A stretch of 64,000 bases of DNA, from the NCBI GenBank assembly GCA_035316025.1, contig DATFXL010000048.1, positions 5,382 to 69,381 of the forward strand, read 5' to 3'. The stretch comes from Acidimicrobiia bacterium. GTDB taxonomy: Bacteria > Actinomycetota > Acidimicrobiia > IMCC26256 > JACDBD01. The translations under genes and the position numbers were made by a program. Below the pieces are notes generated by a model. It had not been told where the DNA came from, ran no database searches, and saw nothing but the letters and a program-made list of their open reading frames with translations. Within the stretch, counting starts at the first letter, position 1, and each line of letters starts with the position of its first letter. Below are positions 16,975 through 34,306 of the stretch, in pieces.

Positions 16975-17891
16975 TGGAGACGCTGCGGACGCCCGACGAG
17001 CGGTTCACCTCCCTACCCGGGTACCCGTTCGCCCCCCACTATCTCGACGTACCCGACGACGAGGGCGGGTCGTTGCGCATGCACTACGTCGACGAAGGGC
17101 CGCCCGAGGCCGACCCTGTCCTGCTGCTCCACGGCGAGCCGTCATGGAGCTTCCTGTACCGCAGGATGATCCCCGTGATCACGGGCGCCAGGCTCCGGGC
17201 GGTCGCACCCGACCTCGCCGGGTTCGGGCGCTCCGACAAGCCGTCGAAACGCGCCGACTACACCTACCAGCGTCATGTCGACTGGATGCGGTCGCTGCTC
17301 GAAGGACTGGCGTTGCAGCGGGTCACGCTCTTCGGCCAGGACTGGGGCGGCCTCATCGGGCTCCGGCTGGCGGCGGAGGAGGCAGATCGGTTCGCCCGCA
17401 TCGTCGCCGCCAACACCTTCCTGCCCACCGGTGACCGCCACCCCGGCGACGCCTTCCTCGCGTGGCAGAAGTTCTCGCAGGAGACCGAGACGTTCCCGGT
17501 CGGCCGAATCGTGAACGGCGGCTGCACCACCGGCCTCGCCCCGGAAGTCGTCGCCGCCTACGACGCCCCCTTCCCCGACGAGTCGTACAAGGAAGGCGCC
17601 CGCCAGTTCCCCGTGCTCGTGCCGACGAGCCCCGACGACCCTGCGTCGGAAGCGAACCGCCGGGCGTGGGACAGGCTCCACCGTTGGGAGAAGCCGTTCC
17701 TGACCACGTTCAGCGACTCGGACCCGATCACCGCCGGCGGCGACCGGGTCCTGCAGAGCGAGATCCCCGGCGCCAAGGGTCGTCCTCACACGACGATCGA
17801 GGGCGCGGGGCACTTCCTGCAGGAAGACCGCGGCGAGCAGCTTGCTCGTGTGGTCGTGGACTTCGTGCAGGGGACACCGGGCAGCGGGTAG
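16974..17891 (+). CDS. haloalkane dehalogenase (HLD-I type alpha/beta hydrolase)
   Basis: Track ORF 16974..17891. It has HGEPSWSFLYR, the nucleophile elbow GQDWGG, GAGHFLQED, and the N-terminal RTPDERFxxLPGYPFAPHY typical of DhlA/DhmA-like enzymes. Confidence 0.85.
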   Translation: METLRTPDERFTSLPGYPFAPHYLDVPDDEGGSLRMHYVDEGPPEADPVLLLHGEPSWSFLYRRMIPVITGARLRAVAPDLAGFGRSDKPSKRADYTYQRHVDWMRSLLEGLALQRVTLFGQDWGGLIGLRLAAEEADRFARIVAANTFLPTGDRHPGDAFLAWQKFSQETETFPVGRIVNGGCTTGLAPEVVAAYDAPFPDESYKEGARQFPVLVPTSPDDPASEANRRAWDRLHRWEKPFLTTFSDSDPITAGGDRVLQSEIPGAKGRPHTTIEGAGHFLQEDRGEQLARVVVDFVQGTPGSG

Positions 17892-17956
17892 GAACCGATC
17901 GGGCGCGGCACGCGTCCGAACGGCAAAACGTAACGTTGCACGCGCAGAGGGGGGAC

Positions 17957-20170
17957 GTGGTGCTCGGCATGCGTGACTCGACGGACACGTCGTTGCCTGT
18001 CCGTACGCGCCTCACAGACTTCACGTGGCTGGGTGGGGTCCTCGGCTGGGTCCTGCCGCTCGGCGGTCTCGCGTTTGCGGTGCTCGTCTGGCCGTTCCCC
18101 GCTCCGAGCGGCGTGATCCTCGACGGGGCGCTGGGTGGCGGTCGGATCGCGCTGATCGCCCTCGGGATCGCGCTGATCTACCGCGCGAACCGCGTCATCA
18201 ACTTCGCCCAGGGCGACCTCGGACAGGTTCCGGCCACGCTCGGATCGCTGTTGGTGATCAGCCTGGGCGTCAACTACATCCTCGCCTTCACGACCGGCCT
18301 CGTCGCCGCGATCGTGCTCGGCGTCCTCGTCGAGACCCTGATCATCCGGCGCTTCTTCCGCGCGCCGCGCCTCATCCTGACGGTGGCCACCATCGGTCTG
18401 TCCCAGGTGCTCATCGCCGGTGGCCTGTTCCTGGCCCAGGCGTTCGGCCAGGACTTCCAGTCCAACCGGCTCGACCCGCCGTTCAGCCTGAAGTTCGAGT
18501 TCGGCAGCACGATCTTCAACGCCAACGACGTGATCGCGATGATCGTGATCCCGGTCGCGTTCATCGCGCTGGCGGCGTGGCTGCGGCTCAGCAACGTCGG
18601 CGTCGCCGTGCGCGCGAGCGCCGAGCGGGCCGACCGGGCGTCGACCCTGGGTATTCCCGTGAAGCGCCTGCACACGATCGTGTGGACGGTTGCCACGGTG
18701 CTCGCGTTCCTCGGCATGTGGTTGCGCGCCGGTGCGGTCGGGCTGCCGATCGGGACGGTGCTCGGGCCGTCGTTCCTGCTCCTAGCCCTGGCCGCCGTCG
18801 TGATCGGCCGCCTCGACCGGTTCTTTGTCATCGCGGTGGCCGCGGTCGGCCTCGGCATCCTGGACAAGGCGATCACGTTCCAGCCCGACAACAACCCCGC
18901 GTTCAACGACGCCATTCTCTTCCTCGTCATCCTCGGCGCCCTGCTCCTCACTCGACGACCAGGCCGGGGGCGCATCGGCGAGGGCCAAGTCTCGACGTGG
19001 CAGGCGGCTCGGGAGGTGCGGCCGATCCCGCGCGAGCTCAAGGGTCTGCCGGAAGTGCGCGTGACGCGGTGGGTGCTCCTCGCCGGTGTCGTCGCGTTCC
19101 TCGTCACGCTGCCGCTCTGGCTGGACGAGAGCCGTATGAATCTCGTCAGCGTCATCGTCATCTTCGGCTTGATCGGGCTCTCGCTCGTCGTGCTGACGGG
19201 ATGGGCGGGTCAGGTCAGCTTGGGCCAGATGGGCTTCGCCGGCATCGGTGCCGCCGTCGGCGGATGGGCTACCTATTACATGCAAACCGACATCTCGCTC
19301 GCGCTCCTCGTCGGCGGGGCCGCCGGCGCGCTGGCCGCCATCGTCGTCGGCTATCCGGCGCTGCGCAGACGGGGTCTGACGCTCGCCGTCAGCACGCTCG
19401 CGTTCGCGCTGTTCGTGTCGTCGTTCCTTCTGAACCAGGAGCTGTTCGGCGAGAACGGCGAGCCGCCTCTGTTCTTCCCGGGCCACTGGCTGCCGGGGTT
19501 CCGCATCGACCGTCTCCCGGTGTTCGGGCGCTTCGACGTCGAGAGCGAGACCCGCTTCTACTTCCTCTGTCTCATCGTGCTCGGCCTTGTGCTCCTCGTC
19601 GTGCGGGGAGTGCGACGGAGCCGTACCGGCCGGGTCCTGATCGCGATCCGTGAGAACGACACGGCGGCGCGGGCGTACGGCATCAACACGACGCGCACGA
19701 ACCTCGCGTGCTTCGCCCTCTCGGGGTTCATCGCCGCAGTGGCGGGCGCGCTGCTCGTGCACCAGCAGACCGGCCTCCAGGTCGGTGCGGGCAACCTCTA
19801 CCTGCCCCAGCAGAGCCTGCAGGTGTTCTCGATGGTCGTGATCGGCGGGCTCGGATCCATCCCCGGTGTGCTGCTCGGCGCCGTGTACGTGTACGGCGCG
19901 CAGTACTTCCTGCCCGGCCAGTGGCAGTTCCTCGCCACCGGGGCCGGGCTGCTGTTGATCCTCATGGTGCTGCCGGGCGGGATCGGCGCCGTCCTCTACG
20001 ACATCCGCGACTGGCTGCTCCGTCAGGTCGCCAAGCGTCGCAAGCTCGTCGTCCCGAGCCTGGTCGCCGACGTCCGCGTCGAGGAACCGGTTCCGGAGCC
20101 TGCCCGTGAAGCGGCCGAGGAAGCGGCCGAGGAAGCGGCCGAACGCGCGCCGGCCGAGGTAGGACCGTGA
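17957..20170 (+). CDS. branched-chain amino acid-type ABC transporter permease, fused LivH-LivM
   Basis: This is the 3' part of track ORF 17462..20170, whose 5' part overlaps the dehalogenase gene. The start is GTG 17957/17960 or ATG 17969, just after GAGGGGGG. There are two BPD_transp_2-type halves (IALIYRANRVINFAQGD... and LTGWAGQVSLGQMGFAGIGA...). Confidence 0.85.
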   Translation: MVLGMRDSTDTSLPVRTRLTDFTWLGGVLGWVLPLGGLAFAVLVWPFPAPSGVILDGALGGGRIALIALGIALIYRANRVINFAQGDLGQVPATLGSLLVISLGVNYILAFTTGLVAAIVLGVLVETLIIRRFFRAPRLILTVATIGLSQVLIAGGLFLAQAFGQDFQSNRLDPPFSLKFEFGSTIFNANDVIAMIVIPVAFIALAAWLRLSNVGVAVRASAERADRASTLGIPVKRLHTIVWTVATVLAFLGMWLRAGAVGLPIGTVLGPSFLLLALAAVVIGRLDRFFVIAVAAVGLGILDKAITFQPDNNPAFNDAILFLVILGALLLTRRPGRGRIGEGQVSTWQAAREVRPIPRELKGLPEVRVTRWVLLAGVVAFLVTLPLWLDESRMNLVSVIVIFGLIGLSLVVLTGWAGQVSLGQMGFAGIGAAVGGWATYYMQTDISLALLVGGAAGALAAIVVGYPALRRRGLTLAVSTLAFALFVSSFLLNQELFGENGEPPLFFPGHWLPGFRIDRLPVFGRFDVESETRFYFLCLIVLGLVLLVVRGVRRSRTGRVLIAIRENDTAARAYGINTTRTNLACFALSGFIAAVAGALLVHQQTGLQVGAGNLYLPQQSLQVFSMVVIGGLGSIPGVLLGAVYVYGAQYFLPGQWQFLATGAGLLLILMVLPGGIGAVLYDIRDWLLRQVAKRRKLVVPSLVADVRVEEPVPEPAREAAEEAAEEAAERAPAEVGP
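20108..20143 (+). repeat. 3 x 12-bp in-frame tandem repeat (GAAGCGGCCGAG) encoding (EAAE)3
   Basis: Copies lie at 20108-20119, 20120-20131 and 20132-20143 (last base differs). They sit in the acidic C-terminal tail of the permease, just before the overlapping start of the next gene. Confidence 0.9.
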
Positions 20171-23157
20171 CCGCGCCTCCGGTCGCGACCGCGCAGATGC
20201 CGGGCGGCCGGTTCGCCCGGTGGTGCGACAGCATCACGGGCGGCGCCGCGCTCTTCCCGCTGGTGGTGCTCTTCGGACTCAACGCCGTCGACCAGCTCGA
20301 CCAGAGCGCCTTCGGCGTGCTCCTGCCGAACATCCGCGACGACTTCCATCTGAACACGGAAGGGATTCTCACCGTCGTCTCGCTGTCATTCGTCGCCGCG
20401 CTCGTCCTCGCCCTGCCCGTCGGGTTCTGGGCCGACCGCCTTCACCGGGTTTCCATCGTCATCGTCGCCGGGATTCTCTGGGGCACCTTCTCGGTGCTCA
20501 CGGGGCTGGCGGTCTCGGTCGTCATGCTCGGCATCGCCCGTGCCGGGTCGGGTCTCGGGCGCGCGTTCAACGACCCGGTCCACAACTCGCTGATCCCGGA
20601 TTACTACGACGTCCCGGTCCGACCAAAGGTGTATGCGGTGCACCGGACCGGGAACGCCATCGGGCTGTTCCTCGGCCCCGTGCTCGGAGGCCTGATCGCG
20701 TACTTCCTCGGGTGGCGGGCGCCGTTCATCCTGTTCGCGATCCCGACCGCGATCTTCGTCGCACTGGCGTTCCGGCTTCGGGAACCCGTGCGCGGTCACT
20801 TCGAACGACGGGCGATGGGTGCCTCCGAGCAGGCCATCGTCACCGAGGAGGCACCGCCGTCGTGGGCCGAGTCGTGGCGCATCGTCTGGCAGGTCCGCAC
20901 GCTCCGTCGCCTGTATGCGGCGCTGCCGTTCCTCGCGCTGGCCGTCATCGGCCTGCTGACGCTCGGCTCGCTCTTCTATCACGACGTGTTCGGGCTCACC
21001 GAGGTCCAGCGAGGCTTGGTAGCCGGCTTCGCCGAACCGGCCCAGATCATCGGGTTCCTGATCGGCATCCCGATCGCGACCCGGCTCTTGGCCCGGGATC
21101 CCGGCCTCGTCCTGAAGTTCCTCCTCGCGGTGACGGCCCTGGTCAGCGTGGCCTGGGTCGTGTTCGCCGAAGCGCCCAACCTCCCCGTCGCGATCGCGAT
21201 GAACCTGGTGATCTCAGGAGCGCTCGGCCTTCTCGTGCCGGGCATCTACAGCGTGCTGTCGCTGGCGATCCCCCCGAAGGTCCGCGCGTTCGGCTTCGCG
21301 GTCGCCGCGATCTGGATCGTCCCCGGGTTCCTTCTCCTGCCCATCATCGGCGGCATCGCCGACTCCTACAGCACCCGACTCGCCCTCCTCGCGGCAGCCC
21401 CCGTGTTCGTCATCGGCGGAGTCATCCTCGCGTCCGGGGGCTCACAAGTCGCGGGCGACATCCGGCGCGTGTGGACGGCGGCCGCCGCCCAGTCCGAGGT
21501 GGCGTACGAGCGCCGCCAAGGCCGGGTCAAGCTCCTGCTCCTGCGCGGCGTCGACGTGCACTACGACAGCGTGCAGGTGCTGTTCGGCGTCGACTTCGAG
21601 GTCGACGAGGGCGAGATCGTCGCGCTCCTCGGCACGAACGGCGCCGGGAAGTCGACATTGCTCAAGTCCATCTCCGGGCTGGTGGAGGCGACCGGCGGCG
21701 CCATCATCTTCGACGGGCGCGATATGACCCACACGCCCCCCGACGAGATCGCGGCGCGCGGAGTGACCCAGGTGCCCGGCGGTCAGGGCGTGTTCCCGTC
21801 GTTGACGGTGGCCGAGAACCTCAGGCTCGCGGGCTGGCTCCAGCGTCGCGAGCACGACGAGGCGATCAAGGCGACCGAACGCGTCATGGGGTACTTCCCG
21901 GTGCTGCGCGAGCGCCTGCACGAGCCCGCTGGCAACCTGTCGGGTGGGCAGCAGCAGATGCTCACACTCGGGATGGCCTTCATCGGCCGCCCCCGCCTGC
22001 TCATGATCGACGAGCTGTCGCTGGGACTCGCGCCCACGGTCATCGCTCAGATGCTCGACATCGTGAAGGCGCTGCGTGACCGGGGCACCACCATCATCCT
22101 CGTCGAGCAGTCGGTGAACCTGGCCCTCACGCTGGCCGACGAGGCGTACTTCATGGAGAAGGGAGAGATCCGCTTCCACGGCCCCACCGCCGAGCTCCTC
22201 GACCGGCCCGACGTCCTCCGGTCGGTGTTCCTCGAAGGCGCCCTGGACGCCAACCCGCCGAAGCCCGGGCCCAACGGCGAAGAGGCGACCCCGGCGCGCG
22301 TCGCCGGCGACGGGCGACGGGCGACGAGCCTCGAGGTCGTCGACGTCTCGAAGCGCTTCGGAGGCGTCACCGCCCTGAACGACGTGTCGTTCGCCGTTCC
22401 GCGCGCGGAGATCCTCGGGTTCATCGGGCCGAACGGCGCCGGCAAGACGACGTTGTTCGACGTGGTCTGCGGCTTCCTGCCCTCCGACGGTGGAACCATC
22501 CACCTCGAAACGAGCCGCGGCAGCTACGACCTCACGCGCCGGTCCGCCCAGGCGCGCGCCCACCTCGGTCTGGGCCGCTCGTTCCAGGACGGTCGCCTGT
22601 TCCCGGCGCTGACCGTTCAGGAGACGATCGCGGTGGCGCTCGAGACGCACGTGAAGTCGCGGGACCCCCTCTCGGCGGCCCTGCACCTTCCCCACGTGAT
22701 GCTGTCCGAGCGACGCGTACGTCGACGCGTCGACGAGCTCATCGAGATGGTGGGCCTGACCGCGTTCCGCGACAAGTTCGTCCACGAGCTCTCGACCGGG
22801 AGCCGTCGGATCGTCGACCTGGCGTGCGTGCTCGCGCATGAGCCGACCGTGCTGCTGCTCGACGAGCCGTCGAGTGGCATCGCGCAACGAGAGGCCGAGG
22901 CGCTCGCTCCCCTGCTCCGTCGCGTACGCGCCGCTCTCGGCGCGACGTTGCTCGTCATCGAGCACGACCTCCCGCTCCTGACCTCGATCGCGGACCGGAT
23001 GATCGCGCTCGACCTCGGCGAGATCATCGCCGAGGGCGACCCGGCCGACGTCGTCCGTCACCCCGCGGTGATCGCCTCGTACCTCGGAACGACCGAATCA
23101 ACCGTTGCGCGCTCGGGCGCGCAGAGCGCGTTGCTCACCGACCGGCGACCCGATTGA
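20167..23157 (+). CDS. triple-fusion protein: 12-TM MFS domain + LivF-like ATPase + LivG-like ATPase
   Basis: Track ORF 20167..23157 is a single uninterrupted 996-aa frame with a GTGA overlap to the permease stop. Residues ~1-430 form an MFS domain with motif A-like GFWADRLHR and 12 hydrophobic segments. A LivF-like NBD follows (GTNGAGKST, LSGGQQQ, DELSLGLAP), then a LivG-like NBD (GPNGAGKTT, LSTGSRR, LLLDEPSSG, VIASYLG). Confidence 0.85.
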   Translation: MTAPPVATAQMPGGRFARWCDSITGGAALFPLVVLFGLNAVDQLDQSAFGVLLPNIRDDFHLNTEGILTVVSLSFVAALVLALPVGFWADRLHRVSIVIVAGILWGTFSVLTGLAVSVVMLGIARAGSGLGRAFNDPVHNSLIPDYYDVPVRPKVYAVHRTGNAIGLFLGPVLGGLIAYFLGWRAPFILFAIPTAIFVALAFRLREPVRGHFERRAMGASEQAIVTEEAPPSWAESWRIVWQVRTLRRLYAALPFLALAVIGLLTLGSLFYHDVFGLTEVQRGLVAGFAEPAQIIGFLIGIPIATRLLARDPGLVLKFLLAVTALVSVAWVVFAEAPNLPVAIAMNLVISGALGLLVPGIYSVLSLAIPPKVRAFGFAVAAIWIVPGFLLLPIIGGIADSYSTRLALLAAAPVFVIGGVILASGGSQVAGDIRRVWTAAAAQSEVAYERRQGRVKLLLLRGVDVHYDSVQVLFGVDFEVDEGEIVALLGTNGAGKSTLLKSISGLVEATGGAIIFDGRDMTHTPPDEIAARGVTQVPGGQGVFPSLTVAENLRLAGWLQRREHDEAIKATERVMGYFPVLRERLHEPAGNLSGGQQQMLTLGMAFIGRPRLLMIDELSLGLAPTVIAQMLDIVKALRDRGTTIILVEQSVNLALTLADEAYFMEKGEIRFHGPTAELLDRPDVLRSVFLEGALDANPPKPGPNGEEATPARVAGDGRRATSLEVVDVSKRFGGVTALNDVSFAVPRAEILGFIGPNGAGKTTLFDVVCGFLPSDGGTIHLETSRGSYDLTRRSAQARAHLGLGRSFQDGRLFPALTVQETIAVALETHVKSRDPLSAALHLPHVMLSERRVRRRVDELIEMVGLTAFRDKFVHELSTGSRRIVDLACVLAHEPTVLLLDEPSSGIAQREAEALAPLLRRVRAALGATLLVIEHDLPLLTSIADRMIALDLGEIIAEGDPADVVRHPAVIASYLGTTESTVARSGAQSALLTDRRPD

Positions 23158-28696: not shown

Positions 28697-30182
28697 CTGG
28701 CTCGCCGACCACCGCGGCCAGCAGCTCCTTCTTGTCGACCTTGTGCATGCCCGAGCGGGGTAGAGGCGTTTCGCGCACGACGAGCCGCCGCGGCAACTTG
28801 TAGTCGGCGAGGCGGTCGGCCAGGAACGCCCGGACCGACTCGACGTCGAGCGGCGCGCTCCCGTTACGCAGACGGACAACCGCGCAGACATCGTGACCGA
28901 GCACGTCATGGGGAACGCCGATGACCGCCACCTCCGCCACGTCGGGATGCTCGTACAACGCGCTCTCGACCTCGATCGAGTACACGTTGTACCCACCCCG
29001 GTTGATCATGTCTTTCTTGCGGTCGACGAGATAGAGGAAACCGTCGGCGTCGAAGTAGCCGAGATCACCCGTATGCACCCAGCCGTCGCGCCAGGTGCGG
29101 ACAGTGGCCTCCGGATCGCTCCAGTACGACCGCTCCCCCGCCGCCAGCCGGATCGTCACCTCCCCGACCGCGCCCAGGGGGCGCTCGTGACCATCGTCGT
29201 CGAGGATGCGCACGGATGCGCCCGCGACCGGCTTGCCGACCGAGCCCGGCCGCCGCAGCAGCTCCCCGGGCGGCATCGTGCACGTGCTGCCGCCCCCTTC
29301 CGTCAGGCCGTAGCCATTGACGAGCGCGGCGCGCGGGAACGCCTCGGCCAGGGCCGGGAGCGAGTGCGGCGGCGTCGGCGCGCTGCCGAACATGACCATC
29401 CGGACTGATCCCGTGTCGCGGCCCGCGAGCGCGCCCGACTCGAGGAGCAGGAGGATCTGGGCCGGGACCATCAGGAGCCACGTGGGCCGGCGTTCCTCGA
29501 TCAATGCTGCGAACCGGTCGGTGTCGAAGCGCGGAAGGGCGATGCTCGTCATCGCCAGACGCAACGGCATGATCAGCGCGCCGAGGCTGCCGAATGTCGT
29601 GGGCAGCGGCGCCGAGTGCAGCAGCGTCAGCAGCTGCTCGAGGGGCTTGGCCTCGTTGGCGAGCACGCTGTCGTGCGTGGACGTGACGCCCTTCGGGAGG
29701 CCGGTCGTCCCCGACGTGTACAAGATCTCGGCCAGGTCCGATCCCGCTCGTGGGACTCGGAACGACCCGGTGTCCCCGCGGGTCACCTCGGCCCACTCGT
29801 TGTCGCCGAGGACGCGGGTCGACTGCAGCGCGCGTGCGCGTGCTTCCTGGTCGCCCCCGGTCACGATCAACGCCGGATCGGCATTGGCCGCGATGTGCTC
29901 GAGCTCGCGAGGCGCGTAGCGCGGGTTGACCGGCACTACGACGGCGCCCGCCTTGTGGGCGGCGACGTACGCCAGCGCGAACCGATCCGCCAGCTCGGGC
30001 GGGAGCAGGAGCATGACCCGGTCCCCGGGGGTCACGCCGCGGTCGACGAGTGCCCGGGCCAGCGTGTTCGAGCGTGCGTCCCAGCCGGCGAACGTCAGGG
30101 CGTCGCCGGCGAAGACGTCGACCGCGACCCGATCAGGAAACCGTTCCGCGACCGCTCGCAGCTCGTCCGGGAGCAGACTCAC
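28689..30182 (-). CDS. AMP-dependent synthetase/ligase (acyl-CoA synthetase family)
   Basis: Track ORF 28689..30182 with a GTG start. It has ILYTSGTTGLPKGV, GYGLTEGGG and YKLPRRLVVRETPLPRSGMHKV. Confidence 0.9.
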   Translation of the reverse strand: MSLLPDELRAVAERFPDRVAVDVFAGDALTFAGWDARSNTLARALVDRGVTPGDRVMLLLPPELADRFALAYVAAHKAGAVVVPVNPRYAPRELEHIAANADPALIVTGGDQEARARALQSTRVLGDNEWAEVTRGDTGSFRVPRAGSDLAEILYTSGTTGLPKGVTSTHDSVLANEAKPLEQLLTLLHSAPLPTTFGSLGALIMPLRLAMTSIALPRFDTDRFAALIEERRPTWLLMVPAQILLLLESGALAGRDTGSVRMVMFGSAPTPPHSLPALAEAFPRAALVNGYGLTEGGGSTCTMPPGELLRRPGSVGKPVAGASVRILDDDGHERPLGAVGEVTIRLAAGERSYWSDPEATVRTWRDGWVHTGDLGYFDADGFLYLVDRKKDMINRGGYNVYSIEVESALYEHPDVAEVAVIGVPHDVLGHDVCAVVRLRNGSAPLDVESVRAFLADRLADYKLPRRLVVRETPLPRSGMHKVDKKELLAAVVGEPAT

Positions 30183-30232
30183 GCCGGCACTGTATTGACG
30201 CGAGCGGACGAAACCCAGAACACTCCCCCGCC

Positions 30233-31285
30233 ATGCAGGAAGCGGCGGCCCCGATCCGCGTTGGCTTGCTGTTCGACTTCCCGCAGGCGGACGGGGGCAC
30301 GAGCTTCGAGGAGGCGGTCCGGCTCGGGCTCGACGAGGTGGCCGCCGCCGGGCGCCTCGACCGCCCAGTCGAGTTCGAGACCCGCCTCGCCCGCGGGCTC
30401 CCGCTCGGGACCGAGCGCGATGTGGTCGCCGCGTTCCGCGAGCTCGACGAGGCCGGCGTGCTGCTGGTCCTCGGCCCGTCGATCAGCGACAACGGGCTGA
30501 TCGCGCGTCCCCTCGCCGACGCCGCCGGCATCCCGAGCATCAACTACACGGGCGGCGAGCGGACGCGCAGCGAGTTCATGTTCCACTACCAGATCGGATC
30601 GCTCGAGGAGGAGCCGCCGCTGCTGGCGCGCCGGCTTGCGCAACGAGGGCTGCGCAGCGCGGCCGTGATCCGCGACCAGTCGCCGGTCGGGCTCGGGTAC
30701 GCCGAGGCGTTCGAGGCCGCCCGCGCCCTCGAGACCATCGAGACGACGGGCGTCGCCGCGATCTCACCACTCTCGGACGACGTGCGTCCGGTCGTCACGA
30801 GGCTGCGGCAAACGGAGCCCGAGGCGCTCGTGTACCTGGGCCTGGGGGTCACGTCCCGTGCCGTGGCCGTCGCCCTCGCCGACCTCGACTGGTCGGTGCC
30901 GGTCGTCGCCAACAGCTCTCTGATGTTCGGGTACGCGCGTCCCGATTGGCGCGACGGCTGGGCCGGATGGGAGTACCTCGACGGCGTGGCCGACGACAAC
31001 CGGATGCGTGATCGCCTCCGCGAGAAGTCGAAGCGCGCCGCCGCCGGACCGATCGGCTGCGCCGCGTATGACATGGGGCGGCTCGTGGGCGAGGCGATCG
31101 CGCGTGCCGGTCACCTCACGCGTGCGGGCCTGAAAGAGGGACTCGAGCGGGTGAAGCAGATGTCGGCCACGTGCGGCGTCGACGGCACGACCATGGGCTT
31201 CGGCACCTACGACCACGCGGCCCTGAAGGGCCGCTACCTCGTCCTGCGCGAGTGGCGGGACGGAAGGACGGTGCAGGTCACATGA
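30233..31285 (+). CDS. type I periplasmic-binding-fold (LivK/AmiC-like) ligand-binding protein without signal peptide
   Basis: This is the 3' part of track ORF 30050..31285, with the ATG at 30233 (MQEAAAPIRVGLLFDFP...). No hydrophobic leader or lipobox is seen. There is no adjacent permease or ATPase. Confidence 0.72.
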   Translation: MQEAAAPIRVGLLFDFPQADGGTSFEEAVRLGLDEVAAAGRLDRPVEFETRLARGLPLGTERDVVAAFRELDEAGVLLVLGPSISDNGLIARPLADAAGIPSINYTGGERTRSEFMFHYQIGSLEEEPPLLARRLAQRGLRSAAVIRDQSPVGLGYAEAFEAARALETIETTGVAAISPLSDDVRPVVTRLRQTEPEALVYLGLGVTSRAVAVALADLDWSVPVVANSSLMFGYARPDWRDGWAGWEYLDGVADDNRMRDRLREKSKRAAAGPIGCAAYDMGRLVGEAIARAGHLTRAGLKEGLERVKQMSATCGVDGTTMGFGTYDHAALKGRYLVLREWRDGRTVQVT

Positions 31286-31294
31286 TGTGCGGGG

Positions 31295-31762
31295 TCACAA
31301 CGACTGGAGGACGCCGAAAACCTTCTCGTCGGGCGGGATGTTGTACTGCTGGGCGCCGACCTCCTCGAACCGCACGATGCCGCCGCCGTCGATCACGAAG
31401 AGGCCGGGTCGCTGCCCGAGCGAGATGAGGCGGCTGGTGACGCCGTAGGCGTCGAAGACCTTGTGCTCCTCGTCCACGAGCGTGGGATACGGCGACGGCT
31501 GCGACCGCAGGTACGCCTCGGAGCGGGCCGGGCTCTCGGCCGAGATGGCGAGCACTTCAGCACCGAGGGCGGTGAAGCGTTCGTAGTCGTCGCGCAACTG
31601 CGCGAGGTGCCGGCGGCAGAACGGTCAGGAGTACCCGCGGAGGAACGCGAGGACGACCGGCCGGCCCCGATACGACGACAGCGACACCTCGCCGCCACCG
31701 GTGCGCGGCAGCGTGAAGTCGGGCGCCGCCGACCCGGTCGGGACCGTCGAGCTCTCGCTCAT
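31295..31762 (-). CDS. Prx-like (AhpC/TSA, PRX_like-type) thioredoxin-fold protein with in-frame TGA at codon 46 (candidate selenocysteine; otherwise a pseudogene)
   Basis: The ATG at 31762 follows GAAGGAGG with a 5-nt spacer. The frame reads MSESSTVPTGSAAPDFTLPRTGGGEVSLSSYRGRPVVLAFLRGYS-TGA(31625-31627)-PFCRRHLAQLRDDYERF and continues in the same frame into track ORF 31295..31597. The region upstream of the TGA has strong third-position GC. The TGA replaces the first Cys of the family (W)CPxC motif. Confidence 0.6.
31590..31605 (-). other. SECIS-compatible stem-loop downstream of the in-frame UGA
   Basis: The mRNA can form UCGCGC-AGUU-GCGCGA, a 6-bp stem with a 4-nt apical loop containing GU. 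The stem starts 19 nt after the UGA. This was folded by eye only. Confidence 0.35.
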
Positions 31763-31883
31763 GGGCTCCTCCTTCGCCGTCGCCGCCGCACACTAGAGCC
31801 AACCCTTGACGGCCGGGACGGCGGCCGGGATCGTGGGCGGGGCGCCATCAGCCGTGGCGCCGTGACGACGTGAGGGGGGACCC

Positions 31884-32099
31884 ATGGCGGACAGCGTCTA
31901 CAAGGTCATCGAGCTGGTCGGGACGAGCTCCGACGGATTCGAGCAGGCGGTCTCGGCCGCCGTCGCCCAGGCGTCGCAGTCGCTGCGCGATCTCAGGGTC
32001 GCCGAGGTCACCCAGCTCGACGTGACCATCGAGAGCGGCAAGGTGTCCGCCTACCGCGCCAAGGTCAACGTGTCGTTCAAGTACGAGGGCGGTGGCTAG
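31884..32099 (+). CDS. dodecin family flavin-binding protein
   Basis: Track ORF 31884..32099 (71 aa). YKVIELVGTSSDGFEQAV...VSFKYE matches actinobacterial dodecins. The SD GAGGGGGG lies 4 nt upstream. Confidence 0.85.
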   Translation: MADSVYKVIELVGTSSDGFEQAVSAAVAQASQSLRDLRVAEVTQLDVTIESGKVSAYRAKVNVSFKYEGGG

Positions 32100-32162
32100 C
32101 GGGTAGCTGTCACACCCCCGTGGTTCGATGCTCGGGAGGGTGGAGCAGACCACGGAGGACCG

Positions 32163-32387
32163 ATGACAGCGACCACTCGATTCAGTGAGGCCAACCTGGC
32201 CGCAGAGACCCCGCCGGTGCGGCTGGAGCCGTGCCCGGCATTCCGTCTCGACTTCGACACGGCTCACCCGGTCTGCGAGGTCTGCGGCTGGCTCGAGCAC
32301 GACCACGCGGGTGACGATGCGCCCGGCGGCGCCGTCGTGAGCGTGCTACGGCGTCGATCCCCGATGCCGCAGCGGTTGGCGTCGTAG
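32163..32387 (+). CDS. small Cys/His-rich hypothetical protein (74 aa)
   Basis: Track ORF 32163..32387. The SD ACGGAGGA lies 3-4 nt before the ATG, and third-position GC is mostly high. It has a CPAF...CEVCGWLEHDH possible zinc-binding motif. I recognise no family. Confidence 0.45.
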   Translation: MTATTRFSEANLAAETPPVRLEPCPAFRLDFDTAHPVCEVCGWLEHDHAGDDAPGGAVVSVLRRRSPMPQRLAS

Positions 32388-32394
32388 GAGCCGC

Positions 32395-33303
32395 TCAGGC
32401 TGACTTGCGAGTCCGCGAGCGGGTCTTCGTGGCCTTGGTGCTCTTGCTCGCCTTCTTGGCGCCGGCCTTCTTCGTCTTCTTGGCCGCCGCCTTCGCGGGC
32501 CGAGCTGCGGCCTGTTCGCCGCCCTTGCCGGCGCGGGCCAAGCTCGCTTCGAGCGCGGCCATGAGGTCGACGACCTTCGCCGGCTCCTCGACCAGCGGCT
32601 CGGCCACGATCTCCTCGCCGGCCGCCTTCTTCTCGATGATCCCGAGGAGCTGCTCGCGGTAGTCGTCGTGGTACTTGTCGGGCTCGAAGTCGGCCGCGAG
32701 CGCCTCGATGAGCTGACGCGCCATGTCGAGCTCCTTCTCGCTCGGCGCGACGTCGTCTTCGCGGGGGATCTCCTCGAGGCTCTCGATCGGGATCACCTCG
32801 TCGGCGTGGCGCATGGTCTCGATGCACAACCCGCCGTCGAGGGGACGGATGGCGACGAGGTGCTCCTTGGCCCGTAGCACGATCTTGCCGACGGCGACCT
32901 TCTGCAGGTCGGTCATCGCCTCGATGAGCAGGCGGTAGGGCCGCTCGGCGGCGCGATCGGGCACCAGGTAGTACGGCTGCTCGAAGTAGACCGGGTCGAT
33001 CTGCTCGAGGTCGACGAAGTCCGAGATCTCGATGGTGTGGCTGGCCTTCGGCGTCAGCTTCTCGAGCTCGTCATTGTCGACCACGACGTACTGGCCGCTG
33101 GCGATCTCGTAGCCCTTCTGGATGCGCTCGTTGGGCACTTCGTCGCCCGTAGCCTCGGACACCCGGCGGTAGCGAATGCGGGCGCCGGTTCCCTCCTCGA
33201 GCTGGTTGAAGCGGACGTCCTTCGAGCGCACGGCCGACACGAGCTTCACCGGTACGGTCACGAGACCGAAGCTGATGTTGCCGCTCCAAATCGTGCTGGG
33301 CAC
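32395..33303 (-). CDS. ku: Ku protein (non-homologous end joining)
   Basis: Track ORF 32395..33312. The IWSGNISFGLVTVPVKL N-terminus and lysine-rich C-terminal tail are canonical bacterial Ku. I moved the start to the GTG at 33303 because the track start GTG (33312) is itself the end of an AAGGAGGTG Shine-Dalgarno sequence. Confidence 0.92.
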   Translation of the reverse strand: MPSTIWSGNISFGLVTVPVKLVSAVRSKDVRFNQLEEGTGARIRYRRVSEATGDEVPNERIQKGYEIASGQYVVVDNDELEKLTPKASHTIEISDFVDLEQIDPVYFEQPYYLVPDRAAERPYRLLIEAMTDLQKVAVGKIVLRAKEHLVAIRPLDGGLCIETMRHADEVIPIESLEEIPREDDVAPSEKELDMARQLIEALAADFEPDKYHDDYREQLLGIIEKKAAGEEIVAEPLVEEPAKVVDLMAALEASLARAGKGGEQAAARPAKAAAKKTKKAGAKKASKSTKATKTRSRTRKSA

Positions 33304-33385
33304 GGGGCCCACCTCCTTGCCGCCCGCCGGCCCCTATAGCGTCGCAGGTCGTGGAGGGTCGACGCACACTTCTCCCGCAGGCCCC

Positions 33386-34306
33386 ATGAGCCCCAAGGGG
33401 AATCAGGTCGAGATCCACGGCCGCCGCCTGCGGCTGTCAAACCTCGACAAGGTCCTCTACCCCGAGGCCGGGTTCACCAAAGCCGAGGTCGTCGACTACT
33501 ACGCCCGGATCGGCGAGGTCATCGTCCCGCACCTGGCCGACCGGGCCGTGACCCTCGTGCGCTGGCCGGACGGGGTCGACCACCAGTCGTTCTTCGAGAA
33601 GCGCTGCCCCTCGCACGCGCCCTCGTGGCTCCGCTCCGCGCCCGTTTCCGACGACCTGACCCAGTGCGTGCTCGACGACCTCCCGTCGCTCGTGTGGGCG
33701 GCGAACATGGCCGCTCTCGAGCTGCACACGCCGCAGGCCCGCGTGTCGAGCCTCGACCGGCCCGACTCGATGGTGTTCGACCTGGACCCGGGCCCGGGGG
33801 CCACCGTGCTCGACTGCGCCCGCGTCGCACTCGACCTCCGGGGAGTGCTTGCCGAGCTGGGACTCGAGTCCGTCGTCAAGACGTCGGGGTCAAAGGGTCT
33901 CCACATGGCGGTGCCGGTGCACACCGCTGTGACCGACGACGATACGAAGGACTTTGCGCGTGCGCTGGGCCAAGTGCTCGCCAAGCGCCAGCCCGACCAG
34001 GTCACCGTGATCATGAAGAAGGAGGAGCGACCGGGGAAGGTGTTCGTGGACTGGAGCCAGAACGACGAGCACAAGACGACCGTGTGCGCGTATTCGCTCC
34101 GGGGCAAGGCACGGCCGCTGGTCTCGACGCCGGTGGCGTGGGACGAGGTGTCGGACGCGCTGGACGACAACGACGAGGACGCGCTGTCGTTCGAAGCACC
34201 CGATGTCCTCGAACGCGTGGCGCAGCACGGCGACCTCTACGCGCCGAACCTCGAGCTGGAGCAGGAGCTGCCCCCTCTGACACCGCAACGGAGCCGGCGC
34301 TCGTGA
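33386..34306 (+). CDS. stand-alone NHEJ polymerase/primase (LigD polymerase domain, PolDom); no ligase domain
   Basis: This is the 3' part of track ORF 33176..34306, with the ATG at 33386. It has RLSNLDKVLYPEAGFTKAEVVDYY, MVFDLDPG, KTSGSKGLHM and VFVDWSQN. It is divergent from ku. Confidence 0.88.
   Translation: MSPKGNQVEIHGRRLRLSNLDKVLYPEAGFTKAEVVDYYARIGEVIVPHLADRAVTLVRWPDGVDHQSFFEKRCPSHAPSWLRSAPVSDDLTQCVLDDLPSLVWAANMAALELHTPQARVSSLDRPDSMVFDLDPGPGATVLDCARVALDLRGVLAELGLESVVKTSGSKGLHMAVPVHTAVTDDDTKDFARALGQVLAKRQPDQVTVIMKKEERPGKVFVDWSQNDEHKTTVCAYSLRGKARPLVSTPVAWDEVSDALDDNDEDALSFEAPDVLERVAQHGDLYAPNLELEQELPPLTPQRSRRS

What the first reader, a model, noticed from the sequence alone, without database searches (positions are those of the whole stretch)
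31295..31762. In-frame TGA at the redox-active Cys of a Prx-like gene, with a downstream hairpin: candidate UxxC selenoprotein
The minus-strand ATG at 31762 is preceded by GAAGGAGG with a 5-nt spacer. It opens a frame with strong third-position GC that reads MSESSTVPTGSAAPDFTLPRTGGGEVSLSSYRGRPVVLAFLRGYS-TGA-PFCRRHLAQLRDDYERF. The frame continues without a shift into track ORF 31295..31597, for 155 codons in total. The N-terminal half (PDFTLP...G..VSLSSYRGRPVVLAFLRG) is the canonical start of AhpC/TSA PRX-like proteins. These proteins carry (W)CPxC at exactly this point, so the TGA (31625-31627) replaces the first Cys and gives U-P-F-C. Nineteen nt after the UGA the mRNA can form UCGCGC-AGUU-GCGCGA (31590-31605). 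Its GU-containing apical loop starts 25 nt after the UGA, within the distance range used in bacterial SECIS models. Sec-containing Prx-like/SelU-like proteins are established, but Sec use is patchy in actinobacteria. Gene callers, and the ORF track here, truncate this gene to its C-terminal 100 aa.
Basis: partly seen in the sequence, partly recalled or inferred. Interest (0 to 1): 0.75.

Follow-up and report, generated by a model that had tools for sequence, protein, structure and literature searches.

The report
Selenocysteine Prx-like redox protein, mis-called as truncated
This is very probably a real selenoprotein gene, a thioredoxin-fold redox enzyme whose in-frame TGA encodes selenocysteine; it belongs to an already known kind, but in this actinobacterial lineage every gene caller has cut it to a 100-residue stump.

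Summary
The minus-strand ORF 31762..31295 encodes a 155-aa AhpC/TSA-fold protein with one in-frame TGA (31627-31625) at the first position of a thioredoxin-type CxxC motif, giving U-P-F-C.

- **Conservation:** the TGA is present in all 6 genome orthologues, all 60 metagenome loci of the clade and the syntenic contig L142. dN/dS is about 0.24 on both sides.
- **RNA element:** synonymous sites are frozen for about 45 nt after the TGA (dS 0.17 against about 0.6 in the flanks). Cys-containing homologues that encode the same peptide vary freely at those sites.
- **Hairpin:** the frozen stretch holds UCGCGC-AGUU-GCGCGA, which meets the published bacterial SECIS criteria. Its 12-nt core occurs 67 times in the 1.45 Mb of DNA held, always 24 nt (start to start) downstream of the TGA of this gene family.
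- **Stop usage:** TGA is otherwise the normal stop in the window.

Two weaknesses remain. Covariation is not significant, so the hairpin is supported by invariance only. No selA, selB, selC or selD could be examined, because the rest of the genome is out of reach.

It is a new lineage-specific member of the known "Prx-like thiol:disulfide oxidoreductase (UxxC)" selenoprotein family. It is not a Sec-peroxiredoxin. Public databases hold it only as fragments.

The parts
31295..31762 (-). Full selenoprotein CDS: 155 codons plus the terminal TGA stop (31297-31295). An AhpC/TSA (thioredoxin-fold) Prx-like protein with a U-P-F-C redox motif.
   Evidence: Translation. Pfam PF00578 at 4.8e-33 spans residues 10-132 across the TGA. 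Orthologues are collinear over residues 1-155. dN/dS is 0.24 for codons 1-45 and 0.25 for codons 67-155.
31625..31627 (-). In-frame UGA, codon 46, read as the predicted selenocysteine. It occupies the N-terminal (attacking) position of the CxxC-type motif.
   Evidence: TGA in 44 of 44 distinct full-length orthologues. TGA in all 6 genome loci and all 60 metagenome loci of the clade. Aligned with the first Cys of ResA CPHC, and with Cys in homologues reading (W/A/H/S/Y/F)CPFC.
31616..31618 (-). Cys49 codon (TGC), the second residue of the U-x-x-C motif. It aligns with the peroxidatic Cys of true peroxiredoxins and is the predicted resolving partner of Sec46.
   Evidence: PDB alignments to 2ywn (Prx) and ResA. 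Invariant in all orthologues.
31590..31605 (-). Predicted bacterial SECIS hairpin UCGCGC-AGUU-GCGCGA. The apical loop AGUU is at 31599-31596, and the invariant 12-nt core GCGCAGUUGCGC is at 31603-31592. It encodes L53-A-Q-L-R-D58.
   Evidence: Passes all four published bSECIS criteria: 6 bp stem, 4-nt loop with G then U at positions 2-3, 25-nt spacing, -9.4 kcal/mol. The core is identical in all 44 distinct sequences from 63 loci, including loci of 50-57% GC. All 67 occurrences of the core in 1.45 Mb lie 24 nt (start to start) after the TGA of this gene family. Cys forms encoding the same peptide use mixed codons.
31608..31618 (-). Small upstream hairpin UGCC-GCC-GGCA (-2.9 kcal/mol) within codons 49-52. 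It may be an accessory part of the recoding element. Its function is uncertain.
   Evidence: RNAalifold consensus. Variation falls mostly in its loop and just 3' of it. There is one compensatory C-G to U-A change (L087) and one C·A mismatch (L066). It is weak on its own.
31583..31624 (-). Zone of frozen synonymous sites (codons 47-60). An RNA-level constraint is overlaid on the coding sequence here.
   Evidence: Seven genomes: 15 of 18 codons invariant here against 18 of 72 elsewhere, Fisher p = 8.5e-6. Forty-four orthologues: dS 0.17 against 0.58-0.66 in the flanks, with Leu56 always the rare TTG codon.
31768..31775 (-). Shine-Dalgarno sequence GAAGGAGG, 5 nt upstream of the ATG.
   Evidence: Read directly from the sequence. 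Orthologues have either a similar leader with ACAGGAG or no leader at all.
31790..31810 (-). Conserved promoter-region element: GTCAAGGG (31810-31803) followed by a TANNNT -10-like box, TAGTGT (31795-31790).
   Evidence: GTCAAGGG plus TANNNT is conserved upstream of nearly all main-clade orthologues. Function is inferred only.

Best explanation
The gene encodes a cytoplasmic, 155-residue thioredoxin-fold (AhpC/TSA 'Prx-like') redox protein. Its UGA codon 46 is decoded as selenocysteine.

**How decoding is thought to work (inferred from the established bacterial mechanism).** While the ribosome holds UGA in the A site, the hairpin UCGCGC-AGUU-GCGCGA lies 19 nt downstream. It presents G and U at loop positions 2-3 to the C-terminal domain of SelB carrying GTP and Sec-tRNA(Sec). 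This tethers the complex to the ribosome so that it outcompetes RF2. The invariant UGA-C context is reported to be a weak terminator in E. coli, which would help.

**How the protein is thought to work (inferred).** It has the active site U46-P-F-C49. Sec sits at the N-terminal, nucleophilic position of a thioredoxin-type CxxC. Cys49 sits where peroxiredoxins have their peroxidatic Cys. The Pro and Thr of the Prx PxxxTxxC signature are absent (FLRGYSUPFC). So it most likely acts as a thiol/selenol-disulfide oxidoreductase that cycles through a Sec46-Cys49 selenenylsulfide. It might also reduce peroxides directly at the selenol.

**Shown:** the TGA, its conservation, translation of both halves, an RNA-level constraint, and a hairpin that fits the SECIS consensus.

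**Inferred:** SelB dependence, Sec identity, and the catalytic chemistry.
For: 1. The TGA is conserved in every member of the clade: 6 of 6 GTDB genome loci at 72-87% amino-acid identity, 60 of 60 metagenome loci that encode AQLRDDY[ED] at 36-99% identity, and the syntenic 791-kb contig L142.
2. Both halves are under equal purifying selection: dN/dS 0.24 for codons 1-45 and 0.25 for codons 67-155, from 946 pairs. One Pfam domain spans the TGA.
3. A Sec/Cys pair exists. Homologues at 35-46% identity read CPFCRRHL with Cys at this exact column, and PDB alignments place it on the first Cys of ResA's CxxC.
4. There is an RNA-level constraint. dS falls to 0.17 in codons 47-61. The core GCGCAGTTGCGC is invariant in 44 distinct sequences across loci of 50-72% GC. 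Cys forms encoding the same CPFCRRHLAQL use mixed codons. No Cys form encodes AQLRDDY.
5. The hairpin passes all four published bSECIS criteria. Its core is found only at this position: 67 of 67 occurrences in 1.45 Mb.
6. TGA is the ordinary stop here. Twenty-three of 25 Pfam-supported ORFs in the window end in TGA, so a local recoding signal is required.
7. The UxxC Prx-like family is an established predicted selenoprotein family (PMC1088965, PMC2398784, PMC9312934, PMC13188914). Full Sec machinery has been reported across another Acidimicrobiia order (bioRxiv 10.64898/2026.04.03.716425).
Against: - No selA, selB, selD or tRNA-Sec was found in the window or in any held flank. The rest of the genome could not be examined, so the key requirement is untested.
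- Covariation support for the hairpin is not significant: one compensatory pair, and 38 of 500 shuffles do as well. The stem is supported by invariance only.
- The fold is no more stable than shuffled sequence (z = -0.41).
- The loose bSECIS criteria are met by chance in 4 of 19 Cys-form sequences.
- In the three low-GC divergent members the stem shrinks to a 4-bp core (-5.1 kcal/mol, or -7.1 with flanks), below the -7.5 threshold.
- The metagenome scan could only find Sec forms through the AQLRDDY pattern. The 'all Sec forms have this peptide' half of the correlation is therefore an artefact of how they were found.
- Rfam gives no match, though bacterial SECIS elements are poorly represented there.
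Confidence: 0.85

Rival explanations
1. The UGA is recoded, but not as selenocysteine. One route would be a SECIS- and SelB-like-dependent insertion of Cys by a selC-like tRNA charged with cysteine. To my recollection such 'recoding with Cys' tRNAs have been described in a few bacterial lineages; I did not check this here. Another route would be near-cognate read-through by tRNA-Trp or tRNA-Cys, stimulated by the downstream structure.
For: All the comparative evidence fits this equally well: conserved TGA, both halves translated, frozen downstream RNA. No Sec-specific gene was seen.
Against: The redox-motif position, the Sec/Cys homologue pair and the N-G-U-N apical loop match classical bacterial selenoproteins. 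If Cys were the product, a TGC/TGT codon would do the same job without any recoding signal, yet none of the 67 loci has reverted within the clade. Sec machinery exists elsewhere in the class (bioRxiv 10.64898/2026.04.03.716425).
Confidence: 0.07
2. The TGA is a genuine stop, and the locus is a split or decaying gene. Either only the 100-aa C-terminal ORF (from TTG 31597) or the two pieces separately are made, or it is a pseudogene.
For: Gene callers produce exactly this result: 100-aa fragments in all of the 120 best database hits, and a 45-aa plus a 100-aa ORF in L142. TGA is the normal stop in this genome.
Against: dN/dS of 0.24 upstream of the TGA equals that downstream. Codons 47-55 would lie between the pieces, and they include the invariant Cys49; they are the most conserved part of the gene. 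Neither piece is a complete thioredoxin fold, since one Pfam domain spans both. The TGA is retained across 36-99% amino-acid identity and 50-72% GC. A pseudogene would accumulate further stops and frameshifts, and none is seen in 44 distinct full-length copies.
Confidence: 0.03
3. Sequencing or assembly error, with the true codon being TGC or TGT.
For: None beyond the prior that single-base errors occur.
Against: The same TGA occurs in 67 independent loci from many assemblies and sequencing technologies.
Confidence: 0.005

Closest known systems
Prx-like thiol:disulfide oxidoreductase selenoprotein family (pfam00578, UxxC/UxxU; called 'Prx-like protein' or 'Prx-like 1' in the Sargasso Sea and GOS selenoproteomes; exemplar WP_010940744.1 of Geobacter sulfurreducens)
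   Same: AhpC/TSA (PF00578) domain. [quoted passage not shown] Cys homologues have CxxC. A bacterial SECIS hairpin lies just downstream in the coding region. This is exactly the published family definition (PMC1088965, PMC2398784, PMC9312934, PMC13188914).
   Different: The described members are mostly from Deltaproteobacteria, Clostridia and marine metagenomes (PMC1794560). This clade sits in high-GC Acidimicrobiia/Actinomycetota MAGs. It has its own signature, RG(Y/F)xUPFCRRH(L/M)AQLRDDY, and its own invariant SECIS core. I could not obtain the exemplar sequence, so direct similarity to described members was not measured.
SelL and the NCBIfam 'SelL-related redox protein' (NF040769)
   Same: This is the best NCBIfam hit (76.6 bits, 1.7e-21). 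It is a Prx-like thioredoxin-fold protein with a redox motif at the same place. SelL is described as a Prx-like selenoprotein (PMC2398784).
   Different: The score is below the curated cutoff of 120 for every member tested, Sec or Cys form (best 86 bits). The match covers only the N-terminal 100 residues or so. To my recollection SelL carries UxxU (a diselenide); I did not check this here. This protein has UxxC.
Sec-containing peroxiredoxin (Prx/PrxU, TxxU)
   Same: Same Pfam domain. Also a selenoprotein with an in-frame TGA and a SECIS. Examples turned up among the distant loci: Chloroflexota TPG*M(A/S)EN and Burkholderiales FTGG*TNQ.
   Different: In those proteins Sec replaces the peroxidatic Cys. 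Here Sec lies three residues upstream at the Thr/first-Cys position, and the peroxidatic position keeps Cys. The Pro and Thr of PxxxTxxC are missing. NF040737 PrxU scores 45 bits against a cutoff of 270.
ResA/TlpA/CcmG-type extracytoplasmic thiol-disulfide oxidoreductases
   Same: The CPxC motif aligns residue for residue (ResA CPHC against UPFC). These are among the top PDB hits (3c71, 4.3e-13).
   Different: The query sequence shows no signal peptide or membrane anchor (N-terminus MSESSTVPTGSAAPDF, no hydrophobic stretch). NF002854 ResA scores 55 bits against a cutoff of 170. The best PDB hit is a cytoplasmic archaeal Prx-like protein (2ywn).
Bacterial SECIS consensus (bSECISearch model)
   Same: The loop size, stem length, G followed by U in the loop, UGA-to-loop spacing and MFE all lie within the published ranges. 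The 4-nt N-G-U-N loop resembles the SelB-contacting GGUC loop of E. coli fdhF. That comparison is from my own knowledge and was not tested.
   Different: It is a very short, perfectly sequence-invariant hairpin with no bulged U. It is preceded by a second mini-hairpin rather than by a long lower stem.

Membership tests
Prx-like thiol:disulfide oxidoreductase selenoproteins (PF00578, UxxC) | AhpC/TSA (PF00578) domain | tested here: met
   114.2 bits, E = 4.8e-33, residues 10-132, against a cutoff of 26.
Prx-like thiol:disulfide oxidoreductase selenoproteins (PF00578, UxxC) | In-frame TGA at the first position of a UxxC redox motif, with Cys at that column in homologues (a Sec/Cys pair) | tested here: met
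   U-P-F-C. It aligns with the first Cys of ResA CPHC. Twenty metagenome Cys forms read CP(F/A)CRRH at this column, and L009 and L022 read CPFC and CPYC.
Prx-like thiol:disulfide oxidoreductase selenoproteins (PF00578, UxxC) | TGA conserved among orthologues, with coding constraint on both sides | tested here: met
   TGA in 66 of 66 fetched clade loci and in L142. dN/dS is 0.24 upstream and 0.25 downstream.
Prx-like thiol:disulfide oxidoreductase selenoproteins (PF00578, UxxC) | SECIS-like stem-loop immediately downstream of the UGA | tested here: met
   The hairpin passes the four bSECIS criteria. Synonymous sites are frozen relative to the Cys-form control. Caveat: covariation is not significant.
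Prx-like thiol:disulfide oxidoreductase selenoproteins (PF00578, UxxC) | Host genome has the Sec-decoding trait (selA, selB, selC, selD) | not testable with these tools
   None in the 64-kb window or in about 1.4 Mb of held loci near Sec-form genes.
Prx-like thiol:disulfide oxidoreductase selenoproteins (PF00578, UxxC) | Selenium actually incorporated at the UGA | not testable with these tools
   Needs 75Se labelling or mass spectrometry.
Sec-peroxiredoxin (Prx/PrxU, TxxU) | Sec at the peroxidatic Cys of the PxxxTxxC signature | tested here: not met
   Sec aligns with the Thr position and C49 with the peroxidatic Cys (2ywn alignment). The Pro and Thr of the signature are absent (FLRGYSUPFC). 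NF040737 scores 45.2 bits against a cutoff of 270.
SelL-related redox protein (NCBIfam NF040769) / SelL | Score at or above the curated cutoff of 120 bits | tested here: not met
   76.6 bits for the window protein. Six other Sec- and Cys-form relatives score 59-86 bits.
SelL-related redox protein (NCBIfam NF040769) / SelL | UxxU diselenide motif (SelL proper) | tested here: not met
   The motif is U-P-F-C, with TGC at codon 49 in 43 of 44 orthologues and TGT in one.
Bacterial SECIS consensus (PMC13188914, Fig. 2) | Apical loop of 3-9 nt and upper stem of 4-16 bp | tested here: met
   4-nt loop and 6-bp stem. The stem is 4 bp in the three low-GC members and 8 bp in L099.
Bacterial SECIS consensus (PMC13188914, Fig. 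2) | G in the first two loop positions, usually followed by G or U | tested here: met
   The loop is A-G-U-U, invariant in all 44 distinct sequences.
Bacterial SECIS consensus (PMC13188914, Fig. 2) | 16-37 nt between the UGA and the apical loop | tested here: met
   25 nt in every member.
Bacterial SECIS consensus (PMC13188914, Fig. 2) | MFE of -7.5 kcal/mol or lower | tested here: met
   -9.4 kcal/mol for the window hairpin. The three low-GC divergent members reach only -5.1, or -7.1 with flanks.
ResA/TlpA-type extracytoplasmic oxidoreductases | Curated HMM cutoff, and an export signal or membrane anchor | tested here: not met
   NF002854 scores 55.1 bits against a cutoff of 170. The N-terminus MSESSTVPTGSAAPDF has no hydrophobic segment, judged by reading the sequence.

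The most novel reading that the evidence does not exclude
A widespread clade of high-GC Acidimicrobiia-like Actinomycetota, not previously listed among Sec users, decodes selenocysteine. The clade is represented by hundreds of metagenome gene fragments. It uses an unusually small SECIS whose 12-nt core (GCGC-AGUU-GCGC) has stayed sequence-invariant across 36-99% protein identity and 50-72% genomic GC. This core dictates the peptide LAQLR in every Sec form. It appears to decay (for example CUCGCCCAAUUGCGC in L123) in a nested Cys branch, which would be a rare visible case of Sec-to-Cys reversion with SECIS erosion. The active site would be a hybrid: Sec at the thioredoxin nucleophile position paired with Cys at the peroxiredoxin peroxidatic position.
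Probability: 0.3. Interest if true: 0.55.

Novelty: new member of a known kind. Interest (0 to 1): 0.4.

Why it matters
There are three practical consequences.

- **Annotation.** In the protein collection searched, all of the 120 best relatives (79-100% identity), some carrying JGI names such as 'peroxiredoxin Q/BCP' and some sourced from NCBI, are C-terminal stumps of about 100 aa that lack the active site. At least one pipeline splits the gene into two ORFs. No NCBIfam model reaches its cutoff, so name-assigning pipelines have nothing to rescue it with.
- **Biology.** If the machinery is confirmed, the gene is a simple marker that this Acidimicrobiia-like lineage uses selenium. The genome hits come from MAGs named SMAG_* and MFD*. 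Actinobacterial Sec use has been described as sparse (PMC1794560), and for this class it was reported only very recently, in marine Actinomarinales.
- **RNA.** A 12-nt invariant SECIS core, together with natural Cys-form controls that encode the same peptide, makes a clean system for testing which features a non-E. coli SelB recognises.

None of this changes the understanding of how selenoproteins work.

Tried and rejected
**Searches that found nothing**
- Rfam, at gathering thresholds on the whole window and in permissive E-value mode on 31500-31700: no match. This is uninformative, since bacterial SECIS elements are barely represented there.
- ARAGORN on the window and 36 loci: no tRNA-Sec.
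- Pfam on 34 window ORFs, and tblastn of E. coli SelA, SelB and SelD against the window and all loci: no Sec machinery near any Sec-form gene. The only hits were in unrelated distant loci, L023 and L036.
- Scan of the window for other in-frame-TGA genes: three hits, all adjacent genes sharing a frame or antisense frames. No second selenoprotein in the window.

**Tests that failed or proved too weak**
- Thermodynamic stability as evidence for the hairpin: rejected (z = -0.41).
- Covariation as evidence: rejected as insufficient (38 of 500 shuffles do as well).
- An outer stem CGUUC/GAACG from the single-sequence MFE fold: rejected, because CCG to CCC/CCT and GAA to GAC/GAU changes break it in orthologues, and RNAalifold drops it.
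- The generic bSECIS pattern as a detector: non-specific, with 15 hits in the window and 4 of 19 Cys forms passing.

I therefore could not check whether any source has ever deposited the full-length product.

**Considered and not run**
- Chaining a SelB homologue search to link Sec machinery to the same MAG. I did not run it. The top-120 hit list would be dominated by the query's own lineage, so a negative result would have meant nothing for the computing cost.
Full report
**1. The observation**

- The ATG is at 31762, with GAAGGAGG five bases upstream.
- There are 155 sense codons and one in-frame TGA at 31627-31625 (codon 46).
- The sequence around it reads ...VVLAFLRGYS-U-PFCRRHLAQLRDDYERF...
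- The terminal stop is at 31297-31295.
- The mechanical ORF list contains only the piece 31295..31597 (100 aa), which begins at a TTG. That TTG is Leu56 and lies inside the loop of the proposed hairpin.
- With Cys written at position 46, the protein matches Pfam AhpC-TSA at 4.8e-33 over residues 10-132. One domain therefore spans the TGA.

**2. Where exactly the TGA sits**

PDB sequence alignments show two things.
- Against ResA (3c71), the query's C/U46-P-F-C49 aligns residue for residue with the thioredoxin-type C-P-H-C.
- Against a genuine Prx-like structure (2ywn), C49 aligns with the peroxidatic Cys of T-Q-V-C, and position 46 aligns with the Thr.

So the Sec is at the N-terminal, nucleophilic position of a CxxC. 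It is not at the peroxiredoxin peroxidatic position. The Pro and Thr of the Prx PxxxTxxC signature are absent (F-L-R-G-Y-S-U-P-F-C).

For contrast, the distant loci from the genome scan contain classical Sec-peroxiredoxins, with the TGA three residues further on: TPG*M(A/S)EN in Chloroflexota and FTGG*TNQ in Burkholderiales-type MAGs.

**3. Comparative evidence that the TGA is read through**

A scan of one genome per GTDB species gave six close orthologues (72-87% identity). All came from MAGs labelled Acidimicrobiia, Actinomycetota or Actinomycetes. All six have TGA at this codon, with collinear coding sequence on both sides.

A metagenome scan with a profile of the seven proteins gave 80 more loci.
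- All 60 that encode AQLRDDY[ED] have TGA at position 46. They range from 99% down to 36% identity, and from about 70% down to about 50% GC.
- The other 20 read CP(F/A)CRRH, with Cys at that column, at 35-46% identity.

Over 44 distinct full-length orthologues, dN/dS is 0.240 for codons 1-45 and 0.248 for codons 67-155. No copy has a second stop or a frameshift. This rules out sequencing error, a pseudogene, and a 'real stop plus downstream restart' reading. The last would also discard the invariant Cys49.

TGA is otherwise the normal terminator here. Twenty-three of the 25 Pfam-supported ORFs I examined in the window end in TGA. There is therefore no global reassignment, and a local signal is needed.

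**4. Evidence for a recoding RNA element**

- In the first seven sequences, 15 of 18 codons with an invariant degenerate amino acid are nucleotide-identical in codons 47-66, against 18 of 72 elsewhere (Fisher p = 8.5e-6). Nucleotide identity is 96% there against 81% in the flanks.
- In the 44-sequence set, dS drops to 0.17 in codons 47-61, against 0.58-0.66 in the flanks. Codons 53-56 are CTC GCG CAG TTG wherever the majority residue is encoded (44 of 44 sequences, 43 for CTC), including the rare Leu codon TTG.
- The 12-nt core GCGCAGTTGCGC is identical in all 44 distinct TGA..+75 sequences from 63 loci. This holds even in the low-GC members, whose neighbouring codons have switched to GAT, TAT and GAA.
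- The natural control is clean. Cys-form homologues that encode the very same CPFCRRHLAQL use CGC/CGG/CGT/AGG, CTC/CTG/CTT, GCG/GCC/GCA/GCT, CAG/CAA and CTC/CTG/TTG.
- No Cys form encodes AQLRDDY. The converse, that all Sec forms have it, is partly an artefact of how they were found. The scan patterns were CPFCRRHL and AQLRDDY[ED].
- In 1.45 Mb of held DNA the core occurs 67 times, and every occurrence starts exactly 24 nt after the start of a TGACC of this gene family.

**5. The structure**

The frozen stretch folds into two hairpins.
- A small hairpin UGCC-GCC-GGCA lies at nt 10-20 from the U of UGA (31618-31608).

RNAalifold recovers the first hairpin and the 4-bp core of the second. The published bacterial SECIS model (PMC13188914, Fig. 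2 legend) sets four criteria:
- an apical loop of 3-9 nt;
- an upper stem of 4-16 bp;
- a G in the first two loop positions, usually followed by G or U;
- 16-37 nt from the UGA to the loop, and MFE of -7.5 kcal/mol or lower.

The window's hairpin has a 4-nt loop A-G-U-U, a 6-bp stem, 25-nt spacing and -9.4 kcal/mol. All four are met.

I want to be plain about the limits.
- Covariation is not significant. There is one compensatory C-G to U-A change (L087) and one G·U (L066), with 98.4% of cells paired, but 38 of 500 shuffles do as well.
- The single-sequence fold is no better than shuffles (z = -0.41).
- Four of 19 Cys-form sequences also contain some hairpin that passes the loose criteria.
- The generic pattern hits 15 places in the window.
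- In the three low-GC members, pair 24-37 is a G·G mismatch, and only the 4-bp core remains (-5.1 kcal/mol, or -7.1 with flanks).

The case for the element therefore rests on position-specific sequence invariance measured against a matched control. It does not rest on thermodynamics or covariation.

**6. What could not be tested**

- The window contains no tRNA and no Rfam family.
- None of 34 ORFs scanned against Pfam is SelA, SelB or SelD.
- tblastn with E. coli SelA, SelB and SelD (fetched) finds nothing in the window or in any Sec-form locus.
- ARAGORN finds no tRNA-Sec in 36 loci.

This says nothing about the rest of a multi-megabase genome. The window's own genome is not in the collections: the best match is a 3.6-kb JGI contig, L060, at 99%.

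The indirect context is favourable. Complete selA, selB, selC and selD sets were recently reported in all 84 complete genomes of Actinomarinales, another order of Acidimicrobiia (bioRxiv 10.64898/2026.04.03.716425).

**7. Genomic context**

The gene is monocistronic.
- Downstream, it converges on a Peripla_BP_6 solute-binding protein gene (30050-31285, + strand).
- Upstream, it diverges from a dodecin gene (31884-32099, + strand; PF07311, 1.2e-24). Beyond that lie a 74-aa ORF, Ku (32395-33312, - strand) and a LigD primase-polymerase gene (33176-34306, + strand).
- The 152-aa minus-strand ORF 31848-32306 is spurious.
- The same gene order is found on a 791-kb contig, L142.

Nothing in the neighbourhood points to a specific substrate.

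**8. Comparison with what is known**

A 'Prx-like' selenoprotein family is long established as a predicted family. It is defined by pfam00578 and by a thioredoxin-like UxxC in place of the TxxU of Sec-Prx.
- Sargasso Sea selenoproteome: PMC1088965.
- GOS 'Prx-like 1', 225 sequences: PMC2398784.
- Reviews: PMC9312934 and PMC13188914.

The present protein meets every defining feature I could test. I therefore file it there, as a new lineage-specific member. It is not a Sec-peroxiredoxin: the Sec position differs, and PrxU scores 45 bits against a cutoff of 270. It is not a member of NCBIfam's SelL-related family either: it scores 76.6 bits against a cutoff of 120, and no relative exceeds 86.

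Earlier bacterial surveys list this family mainly in Deltaproteobacteria. They list actinobacterial selenoproteomes essentially for Symbiobacterium and Rubrobacter (PMC1794560).

**9. Annotation state**

All of the 120 best hits in the 5.8-billion-protein collection (79-100% identity) are 99-104 aa long and cover only the C-terminal 65% of the protein. They come from JGI, ENA, NCBI and Logan. Where named, they are called 'peroxiredoxin Q/BCP' or similar. On L142 the caller produced a 45-aa and a 100-aa ORF, and both hit AhpC-TSA. The active-site residues 46-55 are missing from every one of these records.

**10. Evolutionary aside (tentative)**

A neighbour-joining tree without support values groups the low-GC Sec forms (L115, L117, L118) with a branch of short Cys forms (L119, L121, L123). 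This group is sister to L111 plus the main Sec clade.

Both Sec branches carry the identical hairpin core. L123 reads CTC GCC CAA TTG CGC at that place. A single origin of the Sec form followed by one reversion to Cys, with erosion of the SECIS, is the most economical reading. The sampling was biased by the search patterns.

**11. Verdict**

This is a real feature. I put the probability that UGA-46 encodes selenocysteine at about 0.85. The residual doubt is almost entirely the untested Sec machinery. Novelty: a new member of a known kind. Interest is moderate (0.4). The finding is useful for annotation, as a marker of selenium use in this lineage, and as a clean natural SECIS experiment, but it would not surprise a specialist.

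Noticed in passing
window 31763-31883 (intergenic), and the equivalent region in L001-L006, L060-L109 and L142: An upstream element is conserved in nearly all main-clade orthologues: ACGATTCCGG, then about 15 nt, then cGTCAAGGG, then a TANNNT box. In roughly half of them the TANNNT box lies only 6-9 nt before the ATG/GTG, which suggests leaderless mRNAs. The others, this window included, have a 25-65 nt leader inserted between the box and the start codon. That leader carries a Shine-Dalgarno sequence and, in its long form, an inverted repeat GGCGACGG...CCGTCGCC.
   Followed up: partly
window 31884-32099 (+) and 31848-32306 (-): The true upstream neighbour is a divergently transcribed dodecin gene (PF07311, 1.2e-24). 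The longer 152-aa ORF on the opposite strand has no family hit and is spurious. L142 has the same arrangement.
   Followed up: yes
L012, L021, L029; L031, L035, L037, L038, L040, L041, L043, L045, L048, L053-L055, L059: Two other groups of AhpC/TSA genes have an in-frame TGA, in both cases at the peroxidatic position (TxxU). One reads FTGG*TNQ, in beta-proteobacterial and Burkholderiales MAGs and at the end of a contig from a Streptomycetaceae-labelled MAG. The other reads TPG*M(A/S)EN, in many Chloroflexota and Dehalococcoidia genomes. These look like classical Sec-peroxiredoxins.
   Followed up: no
L119, L121, L123 (Cys forms) and L115, L117, L118, L122 (low-GC Sec forms): The short Cys forms are sister to the low-GC Sec forms on an NJ tree. 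They carry hairpin-like remnants, for example CTC GCC CAA TTG CGC in L123. This could be Sec-to-Cys reversion with a decaying SECIS. The low-GC Sec forms (50-57% GC) keep the identical 12-nt core.
   Followed up: partly
L001 10001-10576: In this orthologue the usual stop after ...LESL is replaced by AGG. The ORF then runs on for 37 more codons, giving 192 aa, apparently through loss of the stop codon.
   Followed up: no
window 17462-23157 (+): Two very long ORFs sit in a branched-chain amino-acid ABC transporter cluster. One is 902 aa with two BPD_transp_2 permease stretches. The other is 996 aa and combines an MFS_1 domain (residues 36-381) with two ABC_tran ATPase domains. These may be unusual fusions, or the ORF starts may be over-extended.
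   Followed up: no
window 32395-34306: An NHEJ gene pair, Ku (minus strand) and LigD primase-polymerase (plus strand), lies two small genes upstream of the selenoprotein gene. It is conserved in synteny on L142.
   Followed up: no
window, both strands: A generic 'TGA + 16-37 nt + 5-bp stem with an N-G-[U/G]-N loop' pattern occurs 15 times in the window, and only the one at 31627 lies in a gene spanned by a protein domain. In addition, 4 of 19 Cys-form homologue sequences pass the published bSECIS criteria by chance. In DNA of about 70% GC, SECIS-pattern matching alone is not evidence.
   Followed up: yes
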